Assembly (NCBI GenBank): GCA_934101145.1
Contig: CAKOPZ010000005.1
Coordinates: 5,290-69,289, forward strand
Length of the DNA stretch: 64,000 nt
Source: an uncultured Clostridia bacterium
GTDB lineage: Bacteria; Bacillota; Clostridia; TANB77; CAG-508
Direction: 5' to 3'
Part shown: piece after piece, positions 13,858-14,552 of the stretch
Layout: each line of letters opens with the position of its first letter
Position numbering within the stretch: position 1 is the stretch's first letter
Translations under genes and position numbers: made by a program
Notes under the pieces: model-generated
Seen by the model: only the letters and a program-made list of their open reading frames with translations
Told to the model about the DNA's origin: nothing
Databases searched by the model: none

Positions 13858-13886
13858 TTGAAATTTTCATAAAAAGTCTGTATAAT
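13858..13886 (+). promoter_or_regulatory. Sigma-70-type promoter of the type III TA cassette
   Basis: TTGAAA, a 17-nt spacer, then TATAAT. It sits directly after the mnmA stop and upstream of the tandem repeats. Confidence 0.7.
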
Positions 13887-13927
13887 GAATATAATAATAG
13901 AGATACCAAAAAGTATCTTGTCCAAAT

Positions 13928-14045
13928 CAAATGTTAGCCGCAACCCTGTTTGCGGGGTATAAATGTATAGGTGTGCAAATGTTACTCGCAACCCTACTTG
14001 CGACAAATAAATGCGTAGGTGGACAAATGTTAATAAAAATCTACC
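13928..14045 (+). ncRNA. ToxI-like antitoxin RNA: 48-nt tandem repeats (about 2.2-2.4 units)
   Basis: Units start at 13928, 13976 and 14024 (the last partial), each beginning CAAATGTTA. The internal hairpin CCGCAA/TTGCGG in unit 1 becomes TCGCAA/TTGCGA in unit 2, a compensatory change. Confidence 0.75.
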
Positions 14046-14066
14046 TTTTTGAAGGTAGATTTTTTG
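14036..14066 (+). terminator. Terminator/attenuator between antitoxin repeats and toxin
   Basis: AAAATCTACCTT / AAGGTAGATTTT stem followed by a T-run. This matches the classic type III TA layout. Confidence 0.75.
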
Positions 14067-14084
14067 TTAGAAATGAGGTACAAA

Positions 14085-14552
14085 GTGAAAGTAGAAAATG
14101 GAAAATTTTATTTTATAAAAGATAATTTTTTTGATCTATTTAAAGGTTATAAATTAATGGAGAATAAAGAAAATGGTAATAAAAGACCTTGCTATTTTTG
14201 TTTTAATGATATAGAAGATGAAAGAATAATTTGGTTTGTTCCAATATCTAGTAAAGTGGATAAATATAAATTAATATACGAAAACAAGAAGAAGACCAAA
14301 AAGAAAGTCTATAACTTTGTTTTTGGAAAAGTTTTAGGAAAGGAAAAAGCATTTTTAATACAAAATATTTTTCCAACAACTGAAGAGTATATAGAAAATA
14401 AATACCAAAATAAGATGCAAGATGTAGAAATAACTGAAACTTTGAAGCAGGAGATTATAGAAACGTCAATGAATGTTATAAAACTGGCTAAAAAAGGAAT
14501 TAATATTCCGTTTTATGATATAATTGAAATGAAAAATATATTGATAAAGTAA
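14085..14552 (+). CDS. ToxN/AbiQ-family type III toxin (endoribonuclease)
   Basis: GTG start 6 nt after GAGG; alternative in-frame starts are at 14049 and 14073. N-terminus KVENGKFYFIKDNFFDLF...NKRPCYFCF...IWFVPISSK follows the ToxN/AbiQ pattern (MKFYT..., RPY..., PLSS). Confidence 0.7.
   Translation: MKVENGKFYFIKDNFFDLFKGYKLMENKENGNKRPCYFCFNDIEDERIIWFVPISSKVDKYKLIYENKKKTKKKVYNFVFGKVLGKEKAFLIQNIFPTTEEYIENKYQNKMQDVEITETLKQEIIETSMNVIKLAKKGINIPFYDIIEMKNILIK

What the first reader, a model, noticed from the sequence alone, without database searches (positions are those of the whole stretch)
13858..14552. Compact type III toxin-antitoxin system (ToxIN/AbiQ/CptIN-like)
All four canonical parts occur in order:

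- A consensus-like promoter (TTGAAA-17-TATAAT).
- Tandem 48-nt direct repeats starting at 13928, 13976 and 14024 (the last partial, about 2.2-2.4 units).
- A rho-independent terminator (14036-14066).
- An ORF of about 155 aa whose N-terminal pattern (KFYFIKDNFFDLF, RPCYF, WFVPISSK) resembles ToxN/AbiQ endoribonucleases.

The repeat units each contain a hairpin whose stem differs between units by compensatory changes (CCGCAA/TTGCGG versus TCGCAA/TTGCGA). That supports a structured antitoxin RNA. The unit length and copy number are close to what I recall for the CptIN family. Type III TA systems act as abortive-infection phage defense. The listed ORF 13931-14125 is an artefact of the repeats.
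Basis: partly seen in the sequence, partly recalled or inferred. Interest (0 to 1): 0.7.

Follow-up and report, generated by a model that had tools for sequence, protein, structure and literature searches.

The report
CptIN RNA-protein toxin-antitoxin cassette
This is a complete, ordinary member of the known CptIN family of toxin-antitoxin modules, in which a small folded RNA holds an RNA-cutting toxin in check; here it is a roughly 0.75-kb cassette inserted just after a housekeeping gene of an uncultured gut Clostridia bacterium.

Summary
All four parts are present in order: promoter, 2.2 tandem 48-nt repeats, intrinsic terminator and a 155-aa ORF.

- **Toxin.** The ORF (GTG 14085 to 14552) is a CptN toxin. 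It matches NCBIfam NF047359 "CptIN family toxin" at E 8e-49, 165 bits against a cutoff of 90. It matches PDB 4RMO at E 3e-19, and the AF2 model matches 4RMO at TM 0.73. Pfam (which would include ToxN_toxin) and PADLOC give no significant hit, so this is CptIN and not ToxIN/AbiQ.
- **RNA.** Eighty related loci from gut Clostridia MAGs keep the same layout. It also supports a second helix, hairpin loop to 3' segment, which makes each unit an H-type pseudoknot like the solved E. rectale CptI.
- **Two units.** The units are not interchangeable copies. Each is conserved as its own orthologue across the clade.
- **Insertion.** The cassette is an insertion. Sister species keep aspS-mnmA-small ORF-murT without it and carry one copy of the mnmA 3' end. 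The window has two copies (45 nt, 84% identical) bracketing a 734-nt cassette. Several other loci show similar target duplications of variable length.
- **Role.** Abortive infection is not established for CptIN. Published tests were negative, and plasmid stabilisation was shown instead.

Verdict: a new member of a known kind, of modest interest.

The parts
13783..13827 (+). Upstream copy of the duplicated target: the last 45 nt of mnmA, including its stop codon
   Evidence: Direct repeat D2 with 14562-14606 is 84% identical at a spacing of 779 nt. Sister species without the cassette have a single copy.
13858..13886 (+). Sigma-70-type promoter TTGAAA-17-TATAAT of the cptIN transcript
   Evidence: It matches 11 of 12 consensus positions. 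The related-locus sequences read show a similar -35 box (mostly TTGACT or TTGATT) and a -10 box (mostly TATAAT) at the corresponding place.
13900..13919 (+). 5' leader stem-loop (GAGAUAC...GUAUCUU) between the predicted transcript start and the first unit
   Evidence: Fold energy is -6.0 kcal/mol, z = -5.95, with 0 of 200 shuffles as stable. A hairpin is read at this position in most related loci, with a different stem sequence in the more distant group (TAGTAGATATTTAATATCTACTA). L028 and L048 lack an obvious one.
13930..13977 (+). CptI antitoxin unit 1, with 48-nt processed boundaries predicted by homology. S1 is 13938-13943 paired with 13950-13955. L1 is C13944. S2 is 13945-13949 paired with 13967-13971. 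The A-rich loop is 13956-13966.
   Evidence: Tandem Repeats Finder and the motif search place the unit. Covariation: S1 is 95.4% paired with CG/UA and AU/CG swaps; S2 is 100% paired with AU/GC swaps in 16 sequences and CG/UA in 2. The window itself has a G-U wobble in S2.
13978..14025 (+). CptI antitoxin unit 2 (48 nt). S1 is 13986-13991 paired with 13998-14003. L1 is C13992. S2 is 13993-13997 paired with 14015-14019. The A-rich loop is 14004-14014 (CAAAUAAAUGC).
   Evidence: S1 shows double swaps GCAA/UUGC to GGAG/CUCC in 11 sequences. S2 is 99.7% paired with AU/GC swaps in 18 sequences. The unit is always exactly 48 nt in 81 loci.
14026..14034 (+). Third, partial repeat: only the conserved AAUGU site that would let the toxin cut the 3' end of unit 2
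   Evidence: In alignment A2 of 62 distinct sequences, AAAU of this site is invariant and the following GU is conserved in at least 90%.
14035..14070 (+). Intrinsic terminator between antitoxin RNA and toxin gene
   Evidence: A 13-bp perfect inverted repeat followed by a T-run (I10). Fold energy is -15.3 kcal/mol, z = -4.9. The related-locus sequences read have a stem-loop between the units and the toxin start. The stem sequence differs in the distant group.
14075..14079 (+). Ribosome-binding site GAGGU, 5 nt before the start codon
   Evidence: Read directly from the sequence. It is conserved in the relatives read.
14085..14552 (+). cptN, a 155-aa endoribonuclease toxin with a GTG start
   Evidence: NCBIfam NF047359 at E 7.8e-49, 165.4 bits against a cutoff of 90, covering profile positions 1-150 of 150. 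PDB 4RMO CptN at E 2.9e-19. The AF2 model matches 4RMO_A at TM 0.73, E 8e-8. There are 751 homologue clusters.
14562..14606 (+). Downstream copy of the duplicated mnmA 3' end, a non-coding remnant
   Evidence: Its last 18 nt are identical to the upstream copy. All 7 mismatches lie in the first 27 nt. Its translation (YNDYVEIGGGKIVD) departs from the orthologue pattern, read from the sequences.

Best explanation
This is a complete cptIN type III toxin-antitoxin module.

**How it is laid out.** One promoter (13858-13886) drives a transcript that contains, in order:
- a 5' stem-loop;
- two 48-nt CptI units;
- a third cleavage site;
- a terminator (14035-14070);
- beyond the terminator, the cptN gene (14085-14552).

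**How it most likely works.**
1. Most transcripts stop at the terminator, so antitoxin RNA is made in excess over toxin mRNA.
2. CptN, an RNase of the Kid/ToxN fold, cuts the precursor at the conserved A|AAUGU sites.
3. Each released 48-nt unit folds as an H-type pseudoknot. It has a 6-bp S1, a 1-nt L1, a 5-bp S2 and an 11-nt A-rich loop containing AUAAAUG.
4. The units stay bound to CptN and block its active site, probably as a closed 2 RNA : 2 protein ring as in E. rectale CptIN.
5. When transcription of the locus stops, or the RNA is lost faster than the protein, free CptN cleaves cellular RNAs and arrests growth.

**What is shown here.** The parts and their order, family membership of the toxin, and both helices of the pseudoknot by covariation. 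Also shown: the cassette is an insertion with a duplicated target.

**What is inferred from the solved and tested E. rectale system.** The processing site, the stoichiometry, toxicity and rescue.

**Biological role.** The most likely role is self-stabilisation (addiction) of the cassette and of the elements that carry it. Phage defence is possible but unsupported.
For: - **Toxin.** NF047359 CptIN toxin equivalog at E 7.8e-49, full length. 4RMO CptN at E 2.9e-19. The predicted fold has 4RMO_A as its only significant PDB match (TM 0.73), followed by ToxN_Bt and CcdB. The Ser51-Ser52-Arg53 triad of CptN_Er aligns with Ser55-Ser56-Lys57, and Tyr104 aligns with Tyr107. All four of these residues are invariant in 20 homologues.
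- **Architecture.** It meets the published search criteria of repeats, then terminator, then toxin (PMC3401426), and is conserved in 80 loci.
- **RNA pairing.** 92.3% of cells are paired, against 32-47% when partners are slid by 1-3 columns. 74 cells changed on both sides, against 21.4 +/- 3.7 in shuffles (0 of 500 shuffles reach it). The S2 helices are 100% and 99.7% paired.
- **RNA topology.** S1, a 1-nt L1, S2 and a long A-rich loop match the solved 45-nt CptI_Er, whose loop is AUAUAAAUG.
- **Cleavage motif.** AAAUGU is invariant at the first two inter-unit sites. At the third site AAAU is invariant and GU is conserved in at least 90% of sequences.
- **Integrity.** The toxin ORF is full length, and the same-species contigs inspected all carry the cassette.
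Against: - There are no expression, processing or toxicity data for this locus or for any member of this clade. The clade is only about 30% identical to the characterised CptN_Er.
- The two residues that read the adenine at the cut site in CptN_Er have no clear counterpart here. Asp81 falls in a gap and Ser85 aligns to Lys88. The cleavage specificity and the exact cut position are therefore guesses.
- The triad Arg is a Lys here.
- The AF2 model is of only moderate confidence: mean pLDDT 73.7 from a shallow alignment of 20 close sequences.
- The pseudoknot was drawn on the window sequence before counting. The sequences are related, so both controls lean in its favour.
- Minimum-free-energy folding of unit 1 alone is no better than shuffles (z = 0.06). 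That program cannot model pseudoknots.
Confidence: 0.9

Rival explanations
1. A ToxIN/AbiQ-family abortive-infection system, which is the other reading in the reader's title. The toxin would be a ToxN/AbiQ homologue forming a 3:3 triangular complex with ~36-nt RNAs, and its main job would be to kill phage-infected cells.
For: The overall layout is the same, with repeats, terminator and toxin. The predicted fold has ToxN_Bt (4ATO) as a weak second match (E 0.02, TM 0.40).
Against: The Pfam scan, which would include ToxN_toxin, gives no significant hit, and PADLOC gives none. The curated CptIN model scores 165 bits. The 48-nt unit lies inside the cptIN range, and the toxIN mean is 38 nt. CptIN loci gave no protection against 6 coliphages, and later against more than 200. 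No homologue was found in 50,697 phage records or in IMG/VR.
Confidence: 0.03
2. The module is a decayed or domesticated remnant. The RNA and/or the protein is no longer active as a toxin-antitoxin pair, and the locus persists only through linkage or a secondary role, such as supplying a terminator or promoter to neighbouring genes.
For: In 4 of 80 related loci the toxin frame is truncated (L005, L036, L042, L049) while the repeats remain. So loss of the toxin does happen in this clade. The window copy starts with GTG where the relatives read have ATG.
Against: The window toxin is full length and aligns over the whole family profile. The aligned triad Ser-Ser and the Tyr are kept. Promoter, ribosome-binding site, both pseudoknots and all three AAUGU sites are intact. 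The protein is 76-94% identical to more than 100 cluster representatives, with 73 invariant columns in a sample of 20. That pattern indicates purifying selection.
Confidence: 0.05
3. The repeat region encodes a small protein (ORF 13931-14125, 64 aa), or is a cis-acting leader or attenuator of the downstream gene, rather than a trans-acting antitoxin RNA.
For: An ATG-initiated ORF spans the repeats. Gene callers on relatives often extend the toxin ORF upstream to 191-225 aa. The terminator between repeats and gene would also fit an attenuator.
Against: Unit 1 is 46, 47, 48 or 49 nt long in different species, which shifts any frame. Substitutions are compensatory in two helices. The invariant AAAUGU sites at unit borders, and homology of the fold to the crystallised CptI, argue for processed units. 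No Rfam riboswitch or leader family matches.
Confidence: 0.02

Closest known systems
CptIN of Eubacterium rectale (PDB 4RMO; Rao et al. 2015, PMC4627078) and the cptIN family of Blower et al. 2012 (PMC3401426)
   Same: - The toxin belongs to the same family by curated HMM, by sequence to 4RMO and by predicted fold.
- The locus order is the same: promoter, about two repeats, terminator, toxin.
- The RNA is an H-type pseudoknot with a one-base L1 and a long A-rich loop that shares AUAAAUG.
- The Ser-Ser dipeptide and the Tyr that stacks at the cut site are conserved.
   Different: - The toxin is only about 30% identical to CptN_Er.
- The unit is 48 nt, not 45 nt. The A-rich loop is 11 nt, not 9 nt. 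S1 is 6 bp.
- The triad Arg is a Lys, and Asp81 and Ser85 are not alignable.
- The two units are clearly different from each other (76% identity) and each is conserved as its own orthologue. Whether the E. rectale repeats differ could not be checked.
- The window copy is a solitary cassette flanked by a target duplication, a feature the two cptIN papers read here do not mention.
ToxIN (Pectobacterium, Bacillus) and AbiQ (Lactococcus) type III systems
   Same: - The logic is the same: a repeat-derived pseudoknot RNA is processed by the RNase it inhibits, with a terminator setting the RNA:protein ratio.
- The toxin has a distantly related Kid/CcdB-like fold.
   Different: - Pfam gives no significant hit to the toxin, so no ToxN_toxin match.
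- Units are shorter in those systems (a 36-base repeat in ToxI_Pa; toxIN family mean 38 nt) and the complex is a 3:3 triangle.
- Those systems have demonstrated abortive-infection activity. CptIN has none so far.
TenpIN (Photorhabdus) type III systems
   Same: A type III layout with few, long repeats. The published range is 39-57 nt and 1.9-3.0 copies.
   Different: It is a different toxin family. Here the only significant family hit is CptIN. TenpIN has shown phage resistance.

Membership tests
Type III toxin-antitoxin locus (criteria of Blower et al. 2012) | [quoted passage not shown] | tested here: met
   Promoter at 13858-13886. Repeats of 48 nt x 2.2. Terminator at 14035-14070. ORF at 14085-14552. 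The criteria are quoted.
CptIN family | Toxin sequence belongs to the CptN family | tested here: met
   NCBIfam NF047359 (equivalog) scores 165.4 bits against a cutoff of 90, E 7.8e-49, over profile positions 1-150 of 150. 4RMO CptN at E 2.9e-19.
CptIN family | Toxin has the CptN fold: a twisted beta-sheet with surrounding helices, Kid-like | tested here: met
   The AF2 model has mean pLDDT 73.7. Foldseek against the PDB puts 4RMO_A first at E 8e-8, TM 0.73. It is the only hit with E < 1e-3. This is a prediction, not a solved structure.
CptIN family | Repeat length and copy number within the family range (40-48 nt; 1.9-3.4 copies) | tested here: met
   48 nt and 2.2 copies. The range comes from PMC3401426 Table 2.
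CptIN family | Antitoxin unit folds as an H-type pseudoknot with a one-base L1 and a long A-rich loop | tested here: met
   S1 and S2 of both units are supported by covariation in 62 sequences. L1 is a single C. The loop is 11 nt and contains AUAAAUG, against AUAUAAAUG in CptI_Er. The tertiary A-minor twist itself is not testable here.
CptIN family | Conserved RNase active site: Ser-Ser/Thr-Arg triad, Tyr104, Asp81 and Ser85 of CptN_Er | tested here: inconclusive
   Ser51-Ser52-Arg53 aligns to Ser55-Ser56-Lys57, and Tyr104 to Tyr107; all four are invariant in the clade. Asp81 falls in an alignment gap and Ser85 aligns to Lys88.
CptIN family | Toxin is toxic, processes its own repeat RNA leaving a 2',3'-cyclic phosphate, and is neutralised only by the cognate RNA; 2:2 heterotetramer | not testable with these tools
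   This needs kill/rescue assays, RNA end mapping, and size-exclusion or structural work. It was shown for the E. rectale, R. torques and C. catus loci only.
ToxIN/AbiQ family | Toxin matches the ToxN/AbiQ profile (Pfam ToxN_toxin) | tested here: not met
   The Pfam-A scan at E <= 10 returned only CTD9 (E 0.036) and UBX (E 0.14), both below their cutoffs. PADLOC gave 0 families.
Abortive-infection / anti-phage defence system | Confers phage resistance through death or arrest of infected cells | not testable with these tools
   There is no PADLOC model hit. Published CptIN tests in E. coli were negative with 6 and with more than 200 coliphages. No test in a native host exists in the library searched.

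The most novel reading that the evidence does not exclude
The roughly 0.75-kb cptIN unit may behave as a minimal selfish cassette that moves without any recombinase of its own.

**Insertion pattern.** It lands at gene 3' ends or terminators and leaves sharp-edged direct duplications of the local target. Their length is variable: 19 to about 121 nt in the clear cases, and 45 nt in the window. The cassette has no fixed termini.

**Possible mechanism.** This pattern fits none of the transposase, integrase or integron routes. It would point to one of three routes:
- recombination of excised circles;
- homology-facilitated illegitimate recombination after DNA uptake;
- replication template switching, with addiction then fixing the insertions.

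**Second, independent point.** The two antitoxin units are orthologously distinct. They carry a fixed U-A versus C-G difference in S2 in 62 of 62 sequences. This could mean that the inhibited complex contains one RNA of each kind.
Probability: 0.3. Interest if true: 0.55.

Novelty: new member of a known kind. Interest (0 to 1): 0.3.

Why it matters
For annotation, the locus should be labelled a CptIN-family type III toxin-antitoxin module. The antitoxin RNA gene spans about 13893-14070. ORF 13931-14125 should be dropped.

The 80-species comparison gives what appears to be the first covariation-level support for the CptI pseudoknot outside the single crystal structure. It also shows that this clade is widespread in uncultured gut Clostridia from humans, mice, rabbits, chickens and deer.

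The variable target duplications, if they hold up, would offer a concrete handle on how tiny recombinase-less TA cassettes spread through chromosomes.

Nothing here changes the picture of how type III systems work. The defence role remains unproven for this family.

Tried and rejected
**Family and database searches**
- Pfam and PADLOC scans of the toxin gave no significant family, so the ToxN/AbiQ assignment was rejected.
- An Rfam scan of 13700-14800 gave only sub-threshold noise (STnc240, mir-254 and others). No CptI family appears to be curated.
- A link to phages was sought four ways:
  - the protein-pattern scan of IMG/VR confirmed nothing;
  - the RNA-motif scan of IMG/VR found nothing;
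  - tblastn against 50,697 GenBank phages found nothing;
  - an unannotated PHROG family (phrog_33519, E 1e-19) does match.
- Blower 2012 supplementary tables were sought to compare the E. rectale repeats, but they are not held.
- A literature search for TA cassettes flanked by direct repeats returned nothing relevant.

**Empty-site and mobility tests**
- A strain-level empty site was sought through contigs encoding the identical MnmA. All those with enough downstream sequence carry the cassette. Empty sites were found only in sister species.
- A transposon with defined ends was considered and rejected. The cassette edges lie 21 to about 100 nt 5' of the -35 box and 6-49 nt 3' of the stop codon in different loci, and no terminal inverted repeats were seen.
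- A site-specific integrative element that restores the mnmA 3' end was considered. There is no recombinase in the cassette. tblastn with one large serine recombinase from a related locus found no match anywhere in the 64-kb window. Targets also differ from locus to locus.
- A control for the flanking repeats at shifted positions gave 0/66, 0/69, 0/67 and 5/65, against 6/73 at the true position. The enrichment is real but the background is not zero.

**Other**
- Minimum-free-energy folding of single units is uninformative for pseudoknots.
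Full report

Yes. The region reads as a promoter, a repeat array, a terminator and an ORF, in that order.

- The promoter TTGAAA-17-TATAAT lies at 13858-13886 and matches 11 of 12 consensus positions.
- Tandem Repeats Finder gives a period of 48 nt and 2.2 copies at 13928-14032, with 78% matches.
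- A perfect 13-nt inverted repeat with a T-run lies at 14035-14070. Its fold energy is -15.3 kcal/mol, z = -4.9.
- An ORF ends at 14552.

The mechanical ORF starts at TTG 14049, inside the terminator. The real start is GTG 14085, 5 nt after GAGGT. In the related loci read, this position is an ATG behind the same ribosome-binding site. Gene callers on same-species contigs aa at this offset.

A motif built from the unit core occurs exactly twice in the 64-kb window, with none expected by chance.

**2. The toxin**

- The 155-aa protein matches NCBIfam NF047359, "type III toxin-antitoxin system CptIN family toxin" (equivalog). The score is 165.4 bits against a cutoff of 90, E 7.8e-49, and the match is end to end.
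- It matches the crystallised CptN of Eubacterium rectale (4RMO) at E 2.9e-19.
- An AlphaFold2 model has mean pLDDT 73.7 and pTM 0.70. Its only significant PDB neighbour is 4RMO_A, with TM 0.73 and E 8e-8. ToxN_Bt and CcdB follow weakly.
- Pfam-A and PADLOC give nothing significant. The family is therefore CptIN and not ToxIN/AbiQ.

I mapped the active-site residues named by Rao et al. (PMC4627078) through the HMMER alignment.

- Ser51-Ser52-Arg53 align with Ser55-Ser56-Lys57.
- Tyr104 aligns with Tyr107. These four residues are invariant in a sample of 20 homologues.
- Asp81 and Ser85 read the adenine at the scissile site in CptN_Er. They fall in an indel, or align to Lys88.

The catalytic core therefore looks intact, but base specificity cannot be transferred.

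**3. The RNA**

A genome-collection scan returned 80 loci from different species-level genomes. All are uncultured gut Clostridia/Bacillota MAGs, with toxin identity of 64-93%.

In the loci whose upstream sequence was read, the order is promoter, a 5' hairpin in most, two units plus a third AAAUGU site, a terminator, a ribosome-binding site and the toxin. All 80 loci have exactly two units.

I aligned 62 distinct sequences (A2). I then tested a structure drawn on the window row. Per unit, it has a 6-bp hairpin stem (S1) and a 5-bp helix (S2) between the hairpin loop and a segment 11 nt downstream.

The counts are:

- 92.3% of cells are paired, against 32-47% when partners are slid by 1-3 columns.
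- 74 cells changed on both sides, against 21.4 +/- 3.7 in shuffles (0 of 500 shuffles reach it).
- The S2 helices are 100% and 99.7% paired, with A-U to G-C swaps in 16 and 18 sequences and C-G to U-A in 2.
- S1 shows GCAA/UUGC to GGAG/CUCC in 11 sequences and to GCCA/UGGC in 6.

One caveat applies. The structure came from one of the sequences, and the sequences are related, so both controls flatter it somewhat. Even so, the number of independent double changes in short helices is hard to explain otherwise.

The topology is S1, a 1-nt L1, S2 abutting the S1 3' strand, and a long A-rich loop. That is the topology of the solved 45-nt CptI_Er: an H-type pseudoknot with L1 = G13 and loop A27-G35 = AUAUAAAUG. 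The units here carry AUAAAUG in an 11-nt loop.

**4. Two different units**

- Within a locus, unit 1 and unit 2 are on average 76% identical.
- Orthologous units between loci are 84% (unit 1) and 88% (unit 2) identical.
- Unit 2 is always 48 nt, while unit 1 is 46-49 nt.
- One S2 pair is U-A in unit 1 and C-G in unit 2 in all 62 sequences.

The array is therefore not being homogenised. Both units are kept as distinct entities. Two explanations are possible, and both are inference. The difference could prevent mispairing between neighbouring units in the precursor. Alternatively, the 2:2 complex could hold one RNA of each kind.

**5. Mechanism**

Shown here:

- the parts and their order;
- toxin family membership;
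- the pseudoknot pairing;
- AAAUGU invariant at the first two unit borders, and AAAU invariant with GU at least 90% conserved at the third.

Inferred from ToxIN and CptIN experiments:

- The terminator limits read-through, so RNA exceeds toxin.
- CptN cuts the precursor after an A. Aligning GUUGA|AAGUUUA of E. rectale with GGACA|AAUGUUA here predicts cuts at 13929|13930, 13977|13978 and 14025|14026.
- The 48-nt products remain bound and occlude the active site.
- Loss of RNA supply frees the RNase.

**6. Context: an inserted cassette**

The neighbours are housekeeping genes. In order they are:

- aspS and mnmA;
- the cassette;
- an 82-aa ORF;
- a class-III aminotransferase;
- murT, gatD and rlmN.

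The last 45 nt of mnmA (13783-13827) recur at 14562-14606 with 84% identity, 10 nt after the toxin stop codon. The 734-nt cassette is therefore bracketed by a direct duplication.

Same-species contigs with enough downstream sequence all carry the cassette. Three sister lineages whose MnmA is 81-83% identical keep the synteny with no cassette and a single mnmA 3' end. That synteny is aspS-mnmA-[79-81 aa ORF]-(aminotransferase)-murT (L091, L094/95, L096). A fourth relative (80% identical, L092) also lacks the cassette but has different genes downstream of mnmA.

Among the 80 other loci the cassette sits in more than 40 different gene contexts. Flanking duplications of local sequence, with sharp edges, recur:

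- L019: about 121 nt at 94% identity.
- L071 and L078: 91 nt at 94.5%.
- L028: 78 nt at 86%.
- L008: 40 nt at 90%.
- L057: 30 nt at 87%.
- L023: 19 nt at 100%.

The upstream copy always ends just 5' of the promoter, and the downstream copy starts 7-50 nt after the stop codon. In several loci the duplicated segment is a gene 3' end or a terminator hairpin. In L057 the two copies differ by two compensatory pairs in that hairpin.

The same test at shifted positions gave 0/66, 0/69, 0/67 and 5/65 hits, against 6/73 at the true position. The signal is enriched, but the background is not zero.

The cassette edges are not at fixed positions, and the cassette encodes no recombinase.

In 24 loci, a closely similar large serine recombinase (82-100% identical over its N-terminal 230 aa) lies downstream of the cassette within the 3-kb flank. 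In those loci the cassette looks like cargo at the edge of an integrated element.

I cannot decide how the solitary copies moved. Candidates are excision and re-integration of circles through the repeats, homology-facilitated illegitimate recombination, and template switching.

**7. What is it for?**

For CptIN specifically, the literature shows three things:

- toxicity and cognate-only rescue for three loci;
- plasmid stabilisation (100% retention against about 50%);
- no effect on 6 coliphages, nor later on more than 200 (PMC3401426, PMC4627078).

No later paper in the library reports CptIN-mediated defence.

- No homologue was found in GenBank phages or IMG/VR.
- An unannotated PHROG family is related.
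- Homologues at 30-44% identity occur on 13 plasmids, including 12-kb C. perfringens plasmids. The 2012 census had found cptIN only on chromosomes.

Addiction or stabilisation is the better-supported role. Abortive infection remains a hypothesis.

**8. Verdict**

NCBI's current family model would name the toxin, so the find is a new member of a known kind.

Two points go slightly beyond the literature I could read. The first is the cross-species covariation proof of the CptI pseudoknot with two non-equivalent units. The second is the variable-length target duplications around a recombinase-less cassette.

Noticed in passing
window 7130-10845: A diversity-generating retroelement lies about 3 kb upstream of the cassette. 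Its parts are a candidate target gene (7130-8299, 389 aa), a bAvd-like gene (8868-9377) and a reverse transcriptase (9883-10845, RVT_1 at E 1.8e-16). The template repeat is 9452-9571 and the variable repeat is 8147-8266. All 21 of their mismatches fall at adenines of the template repeat. Three of the four sister-lineage contigs examined have dtd and a SpoU methylase at this place, so the retroelement is probably also an insertion.
   Followed up: yes
window 14607-14726, minus strand: A perfect consensus promoter (TTGACA-16-TATAAT, 14726 to 14699) points towards the cassette. It is followed by the hairpin at 14649-14610, which has a T8 run on the minus strand. This could be an ~85-nt small transcript convergent with cptN. 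Region 14682-14714 is also a 33-nt, 79% inverted match to the -10 and leader region of the cptIN promoter. It is conserved only in same-species contigs, and there is no Rfam hit.
   Followed up: partly
L001, L007, L012 and 21 further loci, downstream of the toxin within the 3-kb flank: A closely similar large serine recombinase (82-100% identical over its N-terminal 230 aa) follows the cassette. Variable cargo sometimes lies between them, such as a ~490-aa or a ~300-aa ORF of unknown family. An integrated element therefore appears to be a common vehicle for this cptIN clade.
   Followed up: partly
L005, L036, L042, L049 (toxin at 3001 onwards): The toxin reading frame is cut short (107, 111, 16 and 32 codons) while the two RNA units look intact. 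This could be toxin decay with the antitoxin retained, or errors in the MAG assemblies.
   Followed up: no
plasmid records NZ_CP075965.1, NZ_CP075963.1, NZ_CP048628.1, NC_019558.1 and others: CptN homologues at 30-44% identity are annotated as hypothetical proteins on 13 plasmids of Clostridium perfringens, Megamonas, Planococcus, Oscillibacter and Fusobacterium. The 2012 census had found cptIN only on chromosomes. Their upstream repeats were not examined.
   Followed up: no
L023, L040, L043, L072, L074, about 2 kb downstream of the toxin: The control run found direct repeats with the same geometry (about 0.7-1.4 kb apart) at positions unrelated to cptIN. Other small insertions flanked by duplications may exist in these genomes.
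   Followed up: no
window 14837-15085: An 82-aa ORF with no Pfam family and its own promoter (TTGATT...TAAAAT) is conserved at 79-81 aa directly after mnmA in three of the four sister-lineage contigs examined. It is therefore a real gene of unknown function.
   Followed up: no
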